From: Octopus vulgaris
Taxonomy: Eukaryota
Reading direction: 5' to 3'
NCBI GenBank assembly: GCA_951406725.2
Contig: OX597825.1
Span: forward strand, 2,542,001 to 2,606,000
DNA length: 64,000 nucleotides
Shown here: piece after piece, positions 1,490-42,199 of the stretch
Position numbering within the stretch: the stretch's first letter is position 1
Layout of the letters: each line of letters begins with the position of its first letter
Notes under the pieces: model-generated
What the model saw: the letters and a program-made list of their open reading frames with translations, nothing else
Database searches by the model: none
What the model was told of the DNA's origin: nothing
Made by a program: the position numbers and the translations under genes

Positions 1490-1793
1490 TTGTTTGATTT
1501 CACTTTTTCAATATCAGCGACAGTGGACGCTGGAAAAAGTATAAGTATTTGTGAAGGAAATCTAATTCTCGGCGACAACTATGATTGTCACACGCTGATG
1601 AGAGGTCAATACCTCGAAACTCGAGTCCGTGTGTATCATAAGTTGAAGACGGGGAGGATGACTTCCCTTTACAAATACTTACAGGACACAGAAAGTGTGT
1701 CTATGGCCAGCTGGAGGAATGTGTCCTCCTGGGGCTAAAAACTACAGTAGCATCCACCCTTAGGGGTAGCCATAATGATATGGCAAATATACG

Positions 1794-8300: not shown

Positions 8301-9709
8301 ATCGTTAGAAAGTGGGACAAAATGTCTATACATGTACATATATGTATACTTATATATACACATACACGCATCTCTATCGATATTGATCAATCTGTTTCTT
8401 TATATATCTGTTTGTCTATCTATCTTCAAATTTATAGCCACTATCCATTCTCGCGCACTCACACACCACGCGGCAGTATCCTAGGGCTATTCAATCTTCG
8501 AAAACTGAACACTAGCTTTCGGCTTTCATTTTCAATGGAATTAATCAATAAGTTAATCACTCTTCGGTCACTGTCCTGAATGCGATTTTAATTTATTATA
8601 ATTTAGTGTATATCATACAAATCATGCCAGCGCATACTTTACTACCTATAGTATATACTAACACACGAGAAAATATACACACCAACCCAGGCAAACCTAA
8701 AGATAGCGTCACTTTCTATCACTCTCTGTTTTGAAAAGTGAGAGATTTCAGTAAATCCAATGTTCTCTCTACCATCGATCATTTTAATCCTTTTATATTG
8801 AATCTGAACTAAGCATTTTTCTTACGTTTCCGTTGCTTGTTCTGCTATTAGTACTTTCCATTGTCAGCATATATATTTTACCTCTTCACCCCACAATCAT
8901 AACATACATATCGCGGTCTAAATTGAGAATTTTTTTCATTTAGAGGATAATTTAACTTGCCCCAGGATTAGAAACATTGGTGATGCCACCACTAGCTCTC
9001 TAATCACGACGTTCTCCACAGTTTCGTTCTGTTATATATTTCCAGTGAAATAAATTTTTGAGCAGTTGTATTGAGACTTTGAATGTCGGAATGCATGCGG
9101 GCAATATAAAAATTAATATTTCACCATATAACGGCAAGTAAATACAGCACCAACATCACAACGGATAAATATTTTAAAATAGAGGTACAGATGTCTGAAC
9201 TTCCTATTATGCCATCCAGTGTATAGAAGTGTAATATACCATACCGTCTAGCCAGAAAAGTTTGTAAAAAATTTGATGATGAAGAGACGGGAGATAATTG
9301 CGTCGCTGAAATCAAGGAATTTATATGCAAACTAGAATATCCATCCCAACTTACAAAACCACGTTATGCAACGTGTAAAATACGGATTAAAAAGCTTAGA
9401 GAAACTTAAGTAAGAAACAAGAGATCAGTATATCATTACTTTTAAAGTAACTCACAATATATCTCTTCAAAATATTCTAAATGTTCCCAGATCAATCTTG
9501 TCTGACAAACATGCAAGTACTAGAGTAACTGATTGAATTTGTGATCCTACATTTGTTTAATATGAAAGGGAACTAAAATATTTGAAGTAACTTTTCACAA
9601 AGGCAATGTTTGAACTAAATAACAATGATAATATATCCATGCTACGCGAATGTAAAAGCGGTTATCACATACCACTCAGTATATTAACATGAGAATCACA
9701 CTTATAGTA

Positions 9710-33225: not shown

Positions 33226-34679
33226 GATGAGGATTCAGGATGTGAATAGTCAGAACAAATGCATGCACTCTAAGAGGCTCTAAGAATGCTGCATCTTGAA
33301 CAAATTATAAGTGATGACAAATTAAAATGGAATGTTGTTACGCTAGAGTCCTTTTCCATATTAAAAAAATCTTAAGGTGTCAAGCCTGGGCAGAAAATGT
33401 TTCATGTGATCGGCATCTTTTGAAAAATGCAATAATGGATTCATTACGGATATAATAGCAAGGTAGAAAGTAACTTTTATAATATAGTGGACTGAAATTT
33501 AACTATCTATACTTACAGCCATAATTTAATTAGCAAATTTGTATGAAAAAGGCAGTGTGGACTACCTCAGAACTAAAATTAATTAAAATTTATTACAACA
33601 TAAATACCAACAAGAAACTGTAACTAAGGTAATAACTTGACAATTCTGGAGATATTTTGCCCTTATTCGTCCTCTAACGCAAAGTATCGCCACTGTATTC
33701 TAATTAAATTTAATTAATTAAATTTAATATGGGAGTTAATCTATTTAACTCTGTTTCTTGATGAAATTACATCATTAAGACAATTACATTAGCCGCGTCC
33801 TAAAACGGGTTGTATAAATGAACTGAAATATTTTCGCTCATTTTACATAATAATTTTCTTTAGTTTGAGCTATGTCGTTGTTAAAGAGGGTACAGTCGAT
33901 TAGAGTGAACGCATTATATCACTGTAGGTGTCCTTGTCTCGAATACAAAAAGACGAAAGACAAAATACCTGAAGACATTTTGCTGAACGCTCCAAATATT
34001 CTCTCAATTCAAATTTAAACATACTAACACTGTTAATTGCACTTTAGTTGGTGAATAAAACATTCGAAAAAGTAAAGGAGAAAATGTCTTCTGATGATTA
34101 GTTACATTATATTTCGTTCTGTTCTTTTTTACTGTCGAATACACATTTAATTCTGTTTTTAATTATCATTGGAAACAATAGAGAAATGTGAGCGAAGATT
34201 TTTTGCATCTCATGAAAAATAAAACATGGAAATAAAAGGATAAAAATTGTTAGCAATAATATAGAAGGATGAATGGAAATACATAATGAGTTCTGTGTAC
34301 ACTTCTGGTCTACAATAAAAGTCACACCTCAACATGTCGCAAAAAGTCAATCAATCACAACTCAATTAGTCTAGACAATGTATGGCTTGTTTATTTGTTT
34401 AGTTTTACTTTCAACATTATTTTCAAAGAAATGTTTGTGACAAAAAACGATATTACGAAAAGTAAATGGACGTATATTTTACTTAACACTATGAAAATAG
34501 GTGGGGTTGTTGATATTTAAATTTTTGCTGCTATATTTTTACAATTACATCACAATTACTGTGTGGGAGTTTGTATGAGTAATGGGTTAAAACAAAAATT
34601 TATTTTAATAATAAATGAAACAGTAATTATTATAAAATGTAAAACGCTGAAGTATAAATGAATAAATGTACATTAGTGT

Positions 34680-34759
<80 letters not shown>

Positions 34760-37029
34760 TTGCGGTCATTAACTGCCCAGTAGTCTTCTAATTGGTCAAA
34801 ACAATCCTACTTAAAAATTGGTTATTTCACCATGCTTTCCACTTAACAGAGAGATAAAAATGCTGAGTATTAAACAGTGATGTATACAGGTGCATATACA
34901 ACGTTTATTTTGGCGTTAAATATCTTAAATATCTTTATGTGTCCAGCACACAATAACGATACAATGCTATGACATATTTCTTTGCTCAGCGCCTTTTGAT
35001 TACGCCTTTCTGAAGAAGGAAAGCAGCTGATCAAACATTACTATTCAGTTAAGAATTTCTCTTTAAATAGCGTTCTTGTTTCAAAGCAAATTTCAATCGT
35101 TCGTCGCAGGAACGTGATGCCGTGAGTTTGGTGGTTTATTGTGTTATTTTTGTTTTATTTTATTAAGCCACAAAAGCAGTATTGAACTTGCAACGATAAT
35201 TTAGCAAAGCAGCTTTTAGGTTGCCATTCTACTGGCATGCTAAGATCTTAGCTTTTAAACGTCGGTAGTTGAAAGCAATACAATTATAATTAAATATCAT
35301 GAACATGTGTACATCCAGAAAAGAAAAAGAAAACGATCGTGAATGTAAATGCGAGAATGCGCAGATATGTAATTGTGTTGAAGTATTAACATTAACACGT
35401 GTGTCTGTGTATATGGAGATACTGTAATCTGTGAATATCTGTGTTTATGTGGATATATAAATTGATTTATGAGTGCGCATGTCTGTGCTACTGTATAAGA
35501 TCCTATAGAATTTAGCTTATGCGTTAGTGACGTGTGTTTGACATCACATGTGATTACATGAATATATGAATTGGTGTGAGTTCGTTGGTAAATATGTGGA
35601 TTGGAGTTCTATATGCGTTGTGTCTTTATTATGCATTTATTATGTGAAAGTGTGTTTATGTGTGTGAGTGTATGTGTGTACATTTTGTGTAACTGCCTCT
35701 CTGTGTATGTGGAAACGGAGTTCTATTAATATATAAATTGCTGTGTGTCTGTGCCGGTGGATTTGTTTGTGCTTGGTCGTGTAAATGTATGTATACACGT
35801 TCACGTAATCGCATAGACATCGGACTTGGAGCGTAATGTGGCAATCAAGAATGTCAACTCTGTCTAAAATAAATATATCTGAACCATTTACTTGGCTAAT
35901 TATTTCTCTTGTAAAATACACATTTTCATTAAATTTCCTCATACATTTCTTGATAAATGCTTCATGCTGAAATATTTCTTTTTTTTCCTTAATGTTTTGT
36001 TATATTACTTTTCATCATTTATCAACGTTGATTTTTATATTTTATCTTTGAATTGACCTATTGAGTAAAATAAAGTATGTTGTTTAACCGTTTCTTACTG
36101 TTCTTAATTATGCTATTTCCTCTAATATTTTATTTAAACACAGCTGGCTTCTCAGCAAACAAGATTAACATTAGATATCAACTTCTGACTGTAAGAAATT
36201 AGTCTCTGTGTACATAGTTAATGATGTCAAAATCTTAGGCAGAAATTCTGAAATACACTTCAATCAAGTTATATTATTTCAAAATAAACATATAAGAAAT
36301 TTACGTAAAAGAATTTTTAAAAATATAAATAAAACGGATGTTTTCTTAAGCTTTTCATTTTATTAGGATATGAAAGTTTTTCGTTTAGAAAAAGAGAAAA
36401 ATCATTTTTTGTTCTTTTTTTTTGTTTGTTTTATAAGAAACGATGCTTTACAGATTCTGACTCTTCATGTATAAGAGGTCATCGGGGTTACTGAAAATAT
36501 TGAAAAAGAACAGGGCGATATTTCTGTCCATCTGTTTTTGCTCATAAGACAAACGGTGTCACTGTGTGATTCATTCTGTTTTCACTTTTGATAAATCAGT
36601 TGTGTGAAAAGAAATTGTGAGTCTTCCATATATTTACAGCACAAAATAGAATTTAATTGGTACAAACCATCCTTTCCCTTCCACTTCGGAATTTTATAAC
36701 TTGATTAATTCACTTGTGTACATATAAAAGAAAGTCCGGAGAAAAATAACACGACCCTTTGACAAGTTCTGTCGTGCAGTTTTTTCAAGTATGTTCAATC
36801 GTGCAAAGAACTGAATAGATTCTCAATTTCTTTAGAATTTTGTTTGTCATTCATTCTCTTTTTATGGGTGTAAATTGTGTTGCTCCGGTGGATATGCTGA
36901 ATGAGATATGCAGAAAATGGGTGAAAATACAAACAAGATGTCCGGTTGGAAAATAGAAATATAGTTTAATTTTTTATTTTATAAACACATTTATGAAAAC
37001 ATTTAGAATTGTAACACACAGACAGAAAC

Positions 37030-37170
37030 AGGAACTCGGTCGGTTACGACGGTGATTTTTACCAGTTGATCCGATCGACGGAACAGCCTACTCGTGGAAA
37101 GAAATAGGCAGAGTAATCTACAAATATTCCTGCCCCTTAACATAGTCTTCAGGGAGATCCAGCACGACAA
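37030..37170 (-). mobile_element. 3' tail fragment of SINE family C (or of its partner LINE)
   Basis: CCAGTTGATCCGATCGACGGAACAGCCTACTCGTG is the reverse complement of the tail at about 31460-31500. Confidence 0.7.
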
Positions 37171-37171
37171 A

Positions 37172-37369
37172 GCTTGTAATGTTGAAAGAAATACCAAAAT
37201 TTATCGTCTCAGACTTTCTTCGACTGCGAAACAATGGTAGGATTTGACGCCAGAGTGAAAGAAAATCCCAAAATGTATTAAATTCATTAGATCAGTGCAC
37301 GTTAATTATTGAATGGATCATTCGAATGGGGATCACAGACTTTGCAGAATGGGAATCGTTTCTATTGTT
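37172..37369 (+). repeat. 198-bp direct repeat, copy 1 (partner 39329-39526)
   Basis: Ungapped manual alignment, about 13 substitutions. Confidence 0.93.
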
Positions 37370-37621
37370 TGAGACTAACAGAAAACAACTTCCACCATTT
37401 AACTATTCTTTCTTCTCTCATTTGATCATTACGGGATCGATAAAATAATTTACGGGCACAATAATCACGAGTCGAATACGCTAAACACTTAACTGCATAA
37501 ATTCACAACGCATGCGCATCGTGTGTATCAATGTTTCATAACCTGAAGCATCAGTATCGCAATCCTCATCAGTAGATATAGTTTTTGCTTTCGCGATTTT
37601 CCAGTCATATATATATATACA

Positions 37622-37781
37622 TAGGAGTGGGTGTGTGGTAAGTATCTTGCTTACGAACCACATGCTTCTGGGTTCAGTCCCACTGAGTGGAACTATGGAC
37701 AAGTGTCTTCTACTATAGCCTAGGGCCGACCAAACCATTGTGAGTGGATTTGGTAGACGGTAAATGAAAGAAGCCCGTCGT
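37622..37781 (+). mobile_element. SINE family A 5' half
   Basis: AGGAGTGGGTGTGTGGTAAG...GGGTTCAGTCCCACTG...GAGTGGATTTGGTAGACG...AAGAAGCCCGTCG, running into (TA)n. Confidence 0.85.
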
Positions 37782-37782
37782 A

Positions 37783-37830
<48 letters not shown>

Positions 37831-37980
37831 TAATAAAGTTTGTTTGGTAAAGCACGTGGGTGAATATATAAGAAAATAGTAAAGTGTGAAAAAACGACAG
37901 AAGGCTTAAATGTTAAAAGATATATATATTTGTGTCAAAATGTCTGGAGAATATTGGAAAAATTTTTTTTCCTTTCCTTA

Positions 37981-38739
37981 AAACTCAAAAACACCCTAAT
38001 TGACAGACATTACCCAGCTCAACTCATAGAGGATGGGATCAGACGTGCAACAGAAATCAACATAGAAACTTTAAGAAAAGTTCAACACAACAACACACCT
38101 TCCCCGAAAATACTACCTTACATATCTACATACAACCCCAGAAACAAAGAAGCCTTCACCATCATCACCCAGAATTTACCAATACTTCATAAAAACCCAA
38201 AATTAAGGGAAATTCTAAACATACACCAAATCATTAAAAGCTACAAACAGCCTAAATCACTTAAAAAGATTCTCACAAAGGCAAAATTGTCTTCTAAAAT
38301 TACGGATGCAAAAGTAAAAAAATGTGGTAGATCGAACTGTGCAACATGTCCTAACCTATTGGAAGGATCAGAATTCTTCTTTAAAGAAGGACAGAAATTT
38401 AAGATCAAATCTAACTTTACTTGTGCCTCTGAAAACATAATTTATGTTATTAAATGCTCGGGCTGCCACCAAGACTACGTGGGTTCCACGGGACTATCAC
38501 TCAGGCGCAGATGCACACTGCATCGACAACAGATTGCATTCCCAGAATATAGAATGATACCTTTTAGTGAGCACATTGAGAAATGCGCAAAGCAACTACT
38601 GCCACAATTTTTAATCTTCCCATTTTACCAATGTGCTTTCGGATCATCAACACAAATGAGACTGAACAAGGAAACATTCTTCATTGAAAAGTACAAACCC
38701 AGACTCAACCATCCGAACATACTGACACAGAGAAATTAA
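37981..38739 (+). CDS. PLE C-terminal linker plus GIY-YIG endonuclease (5'-truncated, RT missing, no native start)
   Basis: Uninterrupted frame of about 250 codons: LKNTLIDRHYP, PYISTYNP, KSYKQPKSLKKIL, Cys-rich CGRSNCATC, FTCASENIIYVIKCSGCHQDYVGST (GIY...YIG equivalent), LRRRCTLH, RLNKETFFI, KPRLN. Confidence 0.9.
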   Translation, partial: KLKNTLIDRHYPAQLIEDGIRRATEINIETLRKVQHNNTPSPKILPYISTYNPRNKEAFTIITQNLPILHKNPKLREILNIHQIIKSYKQPKSLKKILTKAKLSSKITDAKVKKCGRSNCATCPNLLEGSEFFFKEGQKFKIKSNFTCASENIIYVIKCSGCHQDYVGSTGLSLRRRCTLHRQQIAFPEYRMIPFSEHIEKCAKQLLPQFLIFPFYQCAFGSSTQMRLNKETFFIEKYKPRLNHPNILTQRN

Positions 38740-38875
38740 CAAGGAAATGGGAAAAAAATTTTTTAAGCGATTATCTCCCCTACACCGGAAAAAATCACTC
38801 ACTACCTCCCCTTATTTAGAAATCTCCTGGAAATAAAAACAACGATAAATCCATGCAATATAAACATAACGTCAC

Positions 38876-38915
38876 AAGAAATTTGAAAAGCTACACGCGA
38901 AACCGGTAATTTCTT
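38876..38915 (+). ncRNA. Minimal type I hammerhead ribozyme, U3-A8 core variant
   Basis: Stem I AAGAAAT(38876-82)/ATTTCTT(38909-15), perfect 7 bp; core TTGAAAA(38883-89); stem II GC-tacac-GC; GAAA(38899-902); palindromic stem III CCGG; GUA triplet ending at A38908. It lies in the PLE 3' terminal region where HHRs are expected. Confidence 0.72.
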
Positions 38916-39047
38916 TAAAAATTTAAAAATTATGTCATTTTAAGGAAAGGAAAAAAATTTTTCCAATATTCTCCAGACATTTTGACACAAATATATATAT
39001 CTTTTAACATTTAAGCCTTCTGTCGTTTTTTCACACTTTACTATTTT

Positions 39048-39100
<53 letters not shown>

Positions 39101-39328
39101 ATATATAAAGGCTTAATGCTTTATTTTTCAAAAATCATTTGCAACAAAGCTTGTGAATGCAAAAGGAGCATAAACCCGTGCGCGCATACACACAGACAGA
39201 CTCACACACACACATTCGCACACGCACACAAACTCTGTTTTATATCGATATGGCTTATGGTCCCTGGTTTTTGTAGAGAGTTTGATCGTGCTGGTCAAGT
39301 ATTTGTTTCATATATGCAATATGTGTAT

Positions 39329-39526
39329 GCTTGTAATGTTGAAAGAAATACCAAAATTTATCGTCCCAGACTTTCTTCAACTGCGCAACATAGGTAGGAT
39401 ATGACGCCAGAGCGAAAGAAAATACGAAAATGTATTAAATTCATTAGAGCAGTGCATGTTAATTATTGAATGGATCATTCGAATGGGTATCACAGACTTT
39501 GCAGAATGGAAATCGTTTCTATTGTT
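39329..39526 (+). repeat. 198-bp direct repeat, copy 2 (partner 37172-37369)
   Basis: About 93% identical to 37172-37369. Confidence 0.93.
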
Positions 39527-39725
39527 ATATATTATATATTATTTTTAAAACTCTTCTTTGCGATGATCTAACAGTTTCCTATGAAAGCGACATAGTATTC
39601 TCTATTCCCCGTTCTGCATTTTCTTTCAACTTAGCAACAAAAGTAGATGCGATCGTACCAAATAGTTCTAGAAAATTAAACACAACAGGACATAGTTGTT
39701 AACAATGTTGTATATTAAATTTTTT

Positions 39726-39881
39726 TTTTATTCGTTTACTTGTTTCAATCACCAAAATGCGGCCATGCTGGAGCACCGCTTTCAAGAATGAATCCACCCG
39801 AATATTTTTTGTTTTACTTTTTAAGCCTGCTACTTATTGTCTCTGTCTCAGACACACCCACACACAAACATACACACACAT

Positions 39882-39968
<87 letters not shown>

Positions 39969-40120
39969 CACCTCCATATATATATATATGTATATATATC
40001 TGTACATACACACACATATGTACGCTACGCTTTTATTTCAGTTTCCGTCTATCAAATCCACTTACAAGTATTTGATAGACCCGAGGGTATAGTAGAAGAC
40101 ATTTGCCCATAGCGCCACAC
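39726..40120 (-). mobile_element. SINE family A copy, head truncated, expanded internal microsatellite
   Basis: GCGGCCATGCTGGAGCACCGC (tail) and TTTCCGTCTATCAAATCCAC...TATAGTAGAAGACA (body) are reverse complements of family A segments. Confidence 0.8.
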
Positions 40121-40650
40121 CTGATCGTAATATTTACATGCTGATAATTTGAATTATTCATTGTTCCCTAAAATTTTTGAATATTTCATTTACGACACCC
40201 TACTTTGTTATTAGTAAATTTGAGGGAATATAGTTTACAGACTTTTCTATGGTTATGTCTAGTAGAAAACTGCGCCCTTTGAAAATGGCGGAAGGCATTT
40301 TCCAGGTATGACATTAATGTACATTCATAGGGCATTAATTATACACCTATGCATTTATTTTACGGTTCCTCTTACTAAACTTGCATTGTTGACGCGAAGA
40401 TGGCACCAGGTTATATTCTTTATATCCTTCAGTTGCAAGTGACTTAATTTACATATATTGGAACCACAGTTGGGCTGCAGTTAAGTAGGAATGATCAATT
40501 ATTTATATTACCTAAACTTATTTCAATAAATCTGTTAGAACAGTCAGTGAGAACAAGAAATTTATATTATATACTCTTGCAATATACATGTCTCGAATTT
40601 AAATATCCATAAGTTTAACTCAACATTTTTATAAGGTGAATTATTCGTGA

Positions 40651-41000
<350 letters not shown>

Positions 41001-41139
41001 CCGAATGAGTTCATAATACATGAGATGTATTATCCTAAAGGAAAGAATTCCTTGTTAGACATCGATAACTTTGCTCAAAAGAGTCACTGTTGGTGCGTGA
41101 CTGTGTTGTAAGAAGGTTGCCTCCAAACCACTTGGTCCC

Positions 41140-41595
41140 ATGCTCTCTCAAATGTGTCGACCCCCACCGTAAACTCCTTCTCCCTCTGTGGCGATGACAG
41201 GCATTGTTCTCCCAGTCAGACTCATGCATATCACAGGCCTTTAATGAGGTCTTGACACAGACCTTAGATCGCAGCTTTGGTTTCTGCCGGGGTCCCTTTC
41301 CATTCACAAGTTCCCCACATAGGTTCTGCTTAGAGATGCTATTATCCTTCATTCTAATAAGGTGTCCAGTACAACGTTATCGATGCTTGTGCACCATCGC
41401 CTCAATACGTAAGATATCAGCTTTCCGCTGGACCTGTGAGTCTGGAGGTTTCAAGGTCTAGCTAACATACATAATGTGTCTGAGGCATCTCTGATGAAAG
41501 CGTTCAATACCTCTTGCATGACGTTTGAAAGGGTCCATGTTGAATATTTGGAAATGAGCGATGTCCGTACACATGCACGGTACACAGCAATTTCT
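41140..41595 (-). pseudogene. RTE-clade LINE, post-RT C-terminal fragment
   Basis: EIAVYRACVRTSL...TWTL, ERFHQRCLRHIM, R*RCTGHLIRMKDNSISKQNLCGELVNGKGPRQKPKLRSKVCVKTSLKACDMHESDWENNACHR: the typical RTE C-terminus, with stops and frameshifts. Confidence 0.85.
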
Positions 41596-41623
41596 GTGTG
41601 CGTGTGTGTGGGGGGAGGTGCAC

Positions 41624-41672
<49 letters not shown>

Positions 41673-42199
41673 ACTACGTCGATGATGCAGCAATGCGACA
41701 ACAGGGTCTTCCCTATATCGTCAAACATGTGATGTGCACGTACAGGTTTTCGTCTGCATAATATATATCTACGGAGCTCCGTTTCGGTTTTGGGATTTCC
41801 GAAATACAGTATGAAATTCTCCGAAAATAATATATACATGTTATTTAAGTCTTATGGAAGCCAGAGAAATAACTGTTAGATCTATATGTCTATATGCATT
41901 CTATAGGCATATACACCGACACACGCACATACACATGCACAAATCGACACACATACATTCCATACATACATATATGTGCACACGCACAAGTACACACAAT
42001 CACATATACACACACATCCACACACGTATATATATATATATATATGCATATGTACCTGTATATGCATAAGTTTAAAGATACATTGACCGATACTCACATG
42101 CATCTAAACATATATGTAAGCACGGTTACGTTTCCCTTTTGTGCGCGGGTGTGGATACATTTGTGTGATATATAAATACAAACCTAATGTAAGACTAAT

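What the first reader, a model, noticed from the sequence alone, without database searches (positions are those of the whole stretch)
38876..38915. Non-canonical U3-A8 minimal hammerhead ribozyme in the 3' end of a young Penelope-like element
Seen: AAGAAAT-TTGAAAA-GC tacac GC-GAAA-CCGG-TA-ATTTCTT. This has a perfect 7-bp stem I, a 2-bp stem II, GAAA, a palindromic stem III and a GUA cleavage triplet, about 140 nt after the GIY-YIG stop codon. Known: PLE terminal repeats carry minimal type I HHRs with palindromic stem III that are thought to act as dimers, and C3 and G8 of CUGANGA form a tertiary Watson-Crick pair that tolerates covariation. Inference: the two differences from consensus fall exactly on this pair (C3-G8 to U3-A8), which suggests compensatory change rather than decay. 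Such a ribozyme is missed by standard CUGANGA searches, so this PLE family could be wrongly scored as ribozyme-less.
Basis: partly seen in the sequence, partly recalled or inferred. Interest (0 to 1): 0.85.

Follow-up and report, generated by a model that had tools for sequence, protein, structure and literature searches.

The report
Penelope-element minimal hammerhead, U3-A8 core
This 40-base motif is the standard hammerhead-shaped RNA motif of a large family of Penelope-like jumping genes in this animal genome; its swapped U-A core pair is an already published variant, and it likely cuts its own RNA only weakly, as a pair of copies, which is untested.

Summary
The motif is there as described and is beyond chance (0 of 100 shuffles). 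It lies in the terminal repeat of a young Neptune/Nematis-type Penelope-like element (PLE). The core 31-mer has 667 exact copies genome-wide. Of 30 copies picked by their protein, 28 have U3-A8 and none has C3-G8, so this is not decay. Stem I, which was never searched for, pairs in 9 of 11 related lineages. It is not new: U3-A8 PLE hammerheads, including the same UUGAAAA core, were published in 2014, and this scan noted the kind in other genomes. The compensation claim holds only in part. U3-A8 is ancestral across this lineage, and two sister subfamilies amplified after changing to U3·G8. More distant families carry U3·G8 or U8. U3 can also pair with A17 and cover the cut site. About 10 of roughly 880 copies begin at the predicted cut; the rest read through it. 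Best reading: a weak, dimer-dependent ribozyme; cleavage is untested.

The parts
38876..38915 (+). Minimal type I hammerhead motif: 7-bp stem I, core U3-U4-G5-A6-A7-A8-A9, 2-bp stem II, GAAA, palindromic ACCGGU stem III, GUA triplet
   Evidence: 667 exact copies of 38878-38908 genome-wide against 0 for the reversed control
38883..38888 (+). U3 (38883) and A8 (38888), the variant tertiary pair
   Evidence: 28 of 30 protein-picked copies have U3-A8, 1 U3-G8, 1 A3-A8
38902..38907 (+). ACCGGT palindrome, predicted 6-bp stem III between two copies
   Evidence: co-folding of two copies gives a double-hammerhead topology; prediction only
38908..38909 (+). Predicted cleavage site after A17; A17 can also pair with U3
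   Evidence: position from hammerhead numbering (established knowledge); U3-A17 pair is in the lowest-energy monomer and dimer folds
37982..39056 (+). 5'-truncated copy of the PLE (end of RT/thumb region, Zn-finger-like linker, GIY-YIG domain, terminal repeat)
   Evidence: 99-100% identical to copies elsewhere; matches residues 560-811 of the long ORF in L034
37984..38739 (+). C-terminal 251 codons of the RT-endonuclease ORF, with a CX4CX2C linker and GIY-YIG domain
   Evidence: Pfam GIY-YIG E 0.0083, below the curated cut-off; the whole ORF in L254 hits RVT_1 at E 1.5e-6, just below its cut-off
37864..37983 (-). Inverted short copy of the element's 3' end (equals 38938-39056); holds no hammerhead
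37830..37863 (-). About 35-nt 'tail' extension next to the TA-repeat target
   Evidence: reverse complement of the stretch that follows the terminal repeat in L035; tails described in PMC8557442 passages

Best explanation
The motif is the terminal-repeat minimal hammerhead of a young Neptune/Nematis-type Penelope-like element, and it likely acts as a weak self-cleaving RNA that would cut after A38908 only when two copies about 4 kb apart in a full-length transcript pair through their ACCGGU palindromes. Shown: the anatomy, its place in the element, its status as the family norm, stems that vary together across families, and full units with two copies 3.99 kb apart. Inferred: U3-A8 keeps the 3-8 tertiary pair. 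The 2-bp stem II, the tolerance of U3·G8 and the possible U3-A17 pair keep cutting slow, perhaps needing the element's protein. Slow cutting would suit the element, because its copies span the site and so came from an uncut or re-joined RNA. This window's copy has one motif and no element promoter upstream, so it is probably a passive copy.
For: 667 exact copies; 28 of 30 protein-picked copies are U3-A8. Stem I, not part of any search pattern, has at least 3 bp in 9 of 11 lineages (sum 50 against a deranged mean of 12.2; 0 of 20,000 reach it). Stem II pairs change together across families: GC/GC, GT/AC, GGTC/GACC, GAT/ATC. Core and stems persist along at least six successive subfamilies while loop II changes. 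A second PLE family, 51-55% identical in protein, has the same U3-A8 core with other stems and makes up most of the first 100 listed of 2,598 matches. Full units hold two motifs about 3.99 kb apart. Two copies co-fold as a double hammerhead. Published PLE minimal hammerheads cut weakly and only as multimers (PMC4209133), and one needs its protein (PMC11167929).
Against: No cleavage data. The core, GAAA and CCGG were fixed by my patterns for the distant families, so only the stems are independent evidence there. The 3-8 pair is not kept strictly: U3·G8 subfamilies amplified, and U8 families exist. Four subfamilies lack the first stem I pair and leave a bulged U next to the core. U3-A17 pairing is favoured by 1.4-1.7 kcal/mol, by analogy with the inhibitory C3-G17 pair (PMC3884650). 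Copy ends show at most a weak excess at the cut site (10 against 3 and 5 in two control windows; one-sided p 0.04, with microhomology bias). In the one PLE tested, hammerhead mutants did not affect insertion in vitro.
Confidence: 0.7

Rival explanations
1. A hammerhead-derived motif kept for a non-cutting job, such as pairing two RNA copies through the palindrome or giving the element's protein a binding site, with catalysis lost or negligible.
For: Position 8 takes A, G or U at family level, the first stem I pair comes and goes, and U3-A17 can cover the cut site, yet these subfamilies amplified. Nearly all copies read through the site. In 4 of 11 control places the inversion junction sits at the ACCGGT palindrome. 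PMC4209133 leaves functions other than cleavage open.
Against: U4, G5, A6, A9 and GAAA stay put in protein-picked copies, and position 17 is A, C or U in all 21 family representatives, as catalysis requires. In the retrozyme-like family Watson-Crick 3-8 states make up 87 of the first 100 matches. The sister changes resemble tolerated natural core variants (PMC3088659).
Confidence: 0.22
2. An efficient ribozyme in which U3-A8 fully replaces C3-G8 and sets the 5' end of the element's RNA, as the ribozyme of R2 elements does.
For: Perfect 7-bp stem I and an intact core apart from the 3-8 swap. U3-A8 ribozymes are reported active in vitro (PMC3088659 passage). The cut site lies about 210 nt before the first ORF's ATG in full units.
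Against: None of the 10 copies that begin at the cut site is followed by the ORF. All 8 tandem units examined run on past the upstream motif, although they were picked for holding it. Stem II has only 2 bp and stem III cannot form in a single copy.
Confidence: 0.06
3. A chance or decayed sequence.
For: Folding z-score -0.37; no Rfam hammerhead match.
Against: 0 of 100 shuffles give such a site; it is the family norm; stems covary across families.
Confidence: 0.02

Closest known systems
U3-A8 minimal hammerheads of Cercyon PLEs in Schistosoma mansoni (Cervera and De la Pena 2014, PMC4209133; read parts 1-3 of 4 and supplement passages)
   Same: Type I, in PLE terminal repeats, U3-A8 core (their descriptor found about 1,300 hits). 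Their supplement lists a PLE-linked motif with the same UUGAAAA core. Palindromic 15.2-16.2 region; proposed to work as a dimer.
   Different: Here stem II is 2 bp with no extra base after A9 (theirs is 7-8 bp with one), stem I is 7 bp (theirs 4-5), and stem III is a 6-base palindrome like their fly, rotifer and mosquito variants. The host is a different animal group.
Natural hammerhead core variants (Perreault et al. 2011, PMC3088659; passages)
   Same: Reports natural U3-A8 covariation, 2-bp stems II, weak palindromic stems III and insertions next to position 3.
   Different: Not about this element; family-level U3·G8 or U8 does not appear in the passages I saw.
Poseidon element of Anolis (PMC11167929; passages)
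   Same: PLE terminal-repeat hammerhead close to the ORF start, with a tail signature downstream of it.
   Different: Canonical C3-G8; shown to cut only with the element's protein and not needed for insertion in vitro.
Dimer-cleaving small hammerhead variants of PLEs (Lunse, Weinberg and Breaker 2017)
   Same: By its title, as cited in PMC6765202: small variants linked to PLEs that cut as dimers.
   Different: Not held, so not read. It may already cover the U3·G8, U8 and bulged-U variants seen here.

Membership tests
Minimal type I hammerhead of PLEs | Order: stem I, core, stem II, GAAA, stem III, UH, stem I | tested here: met
Minimal type I hammerhead of PLEs | Core CUGANGA, or the published UUGANAA variant | tested here: met
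   UUGAAAA; variant published
Minimal type I hammerhead of PLEs | G10.1-C11.1 pair, A15.1-U16.1 pair, H17 | tested here: met
   G38890-C38898, A38902-U38907, A38908
Minimal type I hammerhead of PLEs | Palindromic stem III/loop 3 that allows a dimer | tested here: met
   ACCGGT; double-hammerhead co-fold, prediction only
Minimal type I hammerhead of PLEs | Located in the terminal repeat, two tandem copies in full units | tested here: met
   two motifs about 3.99 kb apart on one strand in L033, L035, L250, L251, L253, L254, L255; the window copy has one
Minimal type I hammerhead of PLEs | Stems covary across families | tested here: met
   stem I in 9 of 11 lineages, control never reaches the score; lineages chosen by me from pattern hits
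Minimal type I hammerhead of PLEs | Extra base between A9 and G10.1 (metazoan consensus of the 2014 paper) | tested here: not met
   A9 is followed directly by G10.1, as in canonical hammerheads; I did not check which of that paper's variants lack the extra base
Minimal type I hammerhead of PLEs | Strict Watson-Crick pair at 3-8 across relatives | tested here: inconclusive
   met in this subfamily and most copies; broken in U3·G8 and U8 families
Minimal type I hammerhead of PLEs | Self-cleavage at the predicted site | not testable with these tools
   no raw RNA reads; copy-end test weak
Endonuclease-bearing PLE, Neptune/Nematis type | RT followed by a C-terminal GIY-YIG domain | tested here: met
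   RVT_1 E 1.5e-6 and GIY-YIG E 0.0083, both below Pfam's curated cut-offs
Endonuclease-bearing PLE, Neptune/Nematis type | CX2-5CxxC linker before the endonuclease | tested here: met
   CX4CX2C in the translation; definition from PMC8557442
Endonuclease-bearing PLE, Neptune/Nematis type | Partial tandems, inverted 5' copy, tail, (TA)n target | tested here: met
Endonuclease-bearing PLE, Neptune/Nematis type | Placement in an RT tree with named clades | not tested
   no reference RT set at hand; Neptune and Nematis not told apart

The most novel reading that the evidence does not exclude
In this genome's Penelope elements the 3-8 core pair has been released: U3 is fixed while position 8 moves among A, G and U, the first stem I pair comes and goes, and U3-A17 can cover the cut site, all in subfamilies that kept multiplying. 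The motif would then be a deliberately braked or non-cutting hammerhead, kept for RNA pairing or protein binding because the template must stay whole across the site. The ladder of natural variants would let the long-open question of what PLE hammerheads are for be tested directly.
Probability: 0.22. Interest if true: 0.6.

Novelty: new member of a known kind. Interest (0 to 1): 0.27.

Why it matters
The variant itself is known, so the motif adds one more host and family. Two things are of some use. First, U3-A8 is the main palindromic-stem hammerhead core in this genome: at least 4,970 sites, against 190 with C3 and 295 with U3 and another base at 8, among sites ending in CGAAACCGG (gap ranges differ slightly). 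A canonical-core search would therefore badly undercount hammerheads here. Second, the ordered series of subfamilies gives natural single changes at positions 8, 17 and 1.1 in elements that went on transposing, which is a ready panel for asking whether cutting matters to PLEs.

Tried and rejected
1) Rfam scan of 34000-42000: no hammerhead family among 40 matches. 2) Folding z-scores: uninformative. 3) First reading of L043/L044 as a canonical C3-G8 sister family: withdrawn, because that family's main state is U3·G8 (8 further copies) and only 2 C3-G8 sites matched the pattern genome-wide. 4) The DNA tree (40 rows, 2 dropped because their ORF piece belonged to a nested neighbour) roots on the U3·G8 subfamily and so gives the opposite order. 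I prefer the protein tree with more outgroups, where the older, more decayed subfamilies branch first. The root was not tested formally; both trees need one change at position 8 in this lineage. 5) Sequencing runs: no RNA holder on record was listed. Four runs were laid, all as contigs, so no transcript ends could be seen. 6) Copy-end test: the first pattern (0 hits) matched only 3 of 27 known copies and says nothing. The corrected one (recall 22 of 27) gave 16 hits: 6 point mutants and 10 junctions. Controls: 3 junctions of 5 hits and 5 junction places of 11. A third control was out of register and served only as a rough copy count (881 matches, some doubled). The excess is weak and AT microhomology favours the test site, so it is not taken as evidence of cutting. 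7) A CTGATGA on the minus strand near 37575 fails the descriptor. 8) The GTAGGGGCC hits (L075 type) lack U16.1 and were left out of the stem count. 9) Protein search found only 5 relatives, without context. 10) Papers not held: Lunse 2017, Przybilski and Hammann 2007, Nelson and Uhlenbeck 2008. Searches for a cephalopod report and for U3-A8/C3U terms found no description of this family; the library lacks most subscription papers, and one supplement file of PMC4209133 was not searched.

Full report
Observation. A descriptor allowing C/U at 3 and G/A at 8 finds two sites in the window, this one and a canonical one at 1595. In 100 local shuffles the strict form never occurs. Folding energy is unremarkable and Rfam has no match. 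ViennaRNA closes an eighth stem I pair, U3-A17, over the cut site.

The element. The window lies in a 2.8-Gb genome; that it is a cephalopod is my guess from recalled repeat types and comes from no call. The motif sits in a 5'-truncated copy (37982-39056) with a short inverted piece (37864-37983) and a tail, between TA repeats. The ORF has a CX4CX2C linker and a GIY-YIG domain, and the whole ORF in L254 hits RVT_1. This is the Neptune/Nematis layout of PMC8557442 (passages); no clade tree was built. The top 40 copies are 99-100% identical. Full units are about 3.99 kb with two motifs on one strand. The window copy has one motif, so it has no partner on its own RNA.

Is U3-A8 the family state? 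Yes. The core 31-mer has 667 exact copies against 0 for the reversed control. Of 30 loci picked by protein similarity, without regard to the motif, 28 have U3-A8, one U3-G8, one A3-A8 and none C3-G8. Other subfamilies and families add 1,053, 2,598 and 652 U3-A8 sites. Most of the first 100 listed of the 2,598 belong to a second PLE family, 51-55% identical in protein, with different stems and the motif 700-800 nt behind its ORF. Sites with C3 number 190, mostly tandem repeats in the listed part; sites with U3 and another base at 8 number 295.

Is it a conserved structure? My patterns fixed the core, GAAA and CCGG, so only the stems are independent. Stem I has at least 3 pairs in 9 of 11 lineages that I chose from the hits. 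The summed length is 50 against 12.2 when flanks are dealt among lineages, and 0 of 20,000 deals reach it. Stem II pairs change on both sides between families. Position 17 is A, C or U in all 21 representatives.

Is the 3-8 change compensatory? In part. In the tandem retrozyme-like family, a hand count of the first 100 of 845 matches gives C3-G8 26, U3-A8 61, U3-G8 10 and C3-A8 3; copies are not independent, but both paired states dominate. In the PLE lineage itself the protein tree is a ladder in which U3-A8 is ancestral through at least six subfamilies, and A8 changed once to G8 on a branch with support 99/94. The two U3·G8 subfamilies, 93-94% identical to the window copy, then amplified: about 60 of the first 100 of 295 matches by hand count. 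The DNA tree roots the other way, and the root was not tested formally. A more distant family is mainly U3·G8, and others carry U8 with well-formed, covarying stems I. Four subfamilies lack the first stem I pair and leave a bulged U beside the core. So the C-G to U-A swap is old, and the pair is loosely kept.

Mechanism. Two copies co-fold into a double hammerhead with exchanged stems I and a 6-bp stem III; the form with both U3-A17 pairs is 1.4 kcal/mol more stable. In canonical hammerheads the analogous C3-G17 pair is proposed to trap an inactive form (PMC3884650 passages). Published PLE minimal hammerheads showed no activity as monomers and low activity as multimers (PMC4209133). The Anolis Poseidon hammerhead cut only with the element's protein and was not needed for insertion in vitro (PMC11167929 passages). 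The element's 3' end lies 148 nt behind the cut site, so copies that span the site came from uncut or re-joined RNA (inference). About 10 copies begin at the site, against 3 and 5 in two control windows and roughly 880 copies in all; none of the 10 is followed by the ORF. The excess is weak (p 0.04 one-sided) and biased by AT microhomology. I therefore favour a weak, dimer-dependent ribozyme (0.7) over a non-cutting relic with another job (0.22) and an efficient end-setting ribozyme (0.06). No raw RNA reads were available.

Comparison with what is known. Cervera and De la Pena 2014 report U3-A8 in Schistosoma PLE hammerheads, with about 1,300 hits, and their supplement lists a PLE-linked UUGAAAA core. 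Perreault et al. 2011 report natural U3-A8 covariation, 2-bp stems II and palindromic stems III (passages). Lunse et al. 2017 could not be read and may cover the further variants. I also read parts 1-2 of 5 of a 2026 preprint on retrozymes and passages of PMC6765202, PMC6155905, PMC7151607, PMC7229834 and PMC12602865; none describes this family. The scan's own notes list the same kind of motif in other genomes; they came after my reading was formed and are not counted as support.

Verdict. A real, family-wide minimal hammerhead motif of a published type in a new host family; interest 0.27. The part worth following is the natural series of core variants in subfamilies that kept transposing.

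Noticed in passing
window 1589-1633 (+): A canonical C3-G8 type I hammerhead motif with a 4-bp stem II and a different palindrome (ACTCGAGT), single copy, about 165 nt before a TA run. Its stem II resembles that of the genome's tandem retrozyme-like family.
   Followed up: partly
L045-L051, L057-L059, L154 and others (G000): A family of tandem repeats of about 359 nt with hammerheads, 845 matches genome-wide, in which C3-G8 and U3-A8 both occur in tandem arrays and mixed states are rarer.
   Followed up: partly
L035 5065-6552 and 6378 onward; also L033, L250-L255: Full units have two overlapping frames: an ORF1 of 451 residues with no Pfam match and the RT-endonuclease frame (811 codons stop to stop) in the -1 frame. 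A T TTT TTA heptamer followed by a GC-rich stretch is identical in all 14 overlaps printed, which suggests a programmed -1 frameshift. PMC8557442 mentions an optional frameshifted ORF1 in PLEs without naming the clade in the passage seen.
   Followed up: partly
L308-L311: In 4 of 11 places the inversion junction between two opposed copies falls at the ACCGGT palindrome of the motif.
   Followed up: no
L259: A copy in which the stretch from just before stem I up to the predicted cut site is deleted and replaced by a few A/T bases.
   Followed up: no
L043, L044, L202 and window 38781-38792: A short box (TTATCTCCCCTA-like) upstream of the hammerhead is shared between this family and one that is about 64% identical in protein.
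   Followed up: no
window 37172-37369 and 39330-39526: A stretch of about 200 nt repeated at 93% identity on both sides of the element.
   Followed up: no
window 37606-37800: A dispersed repeat, found in several other loci at 77-88% identity, next to the TA run; SINE-like by recall.
   Followed up: no
window 9227-9427 (+): An old fragment of a related PLE ORF, 35% identical over 69 residues.
   Followed up: no
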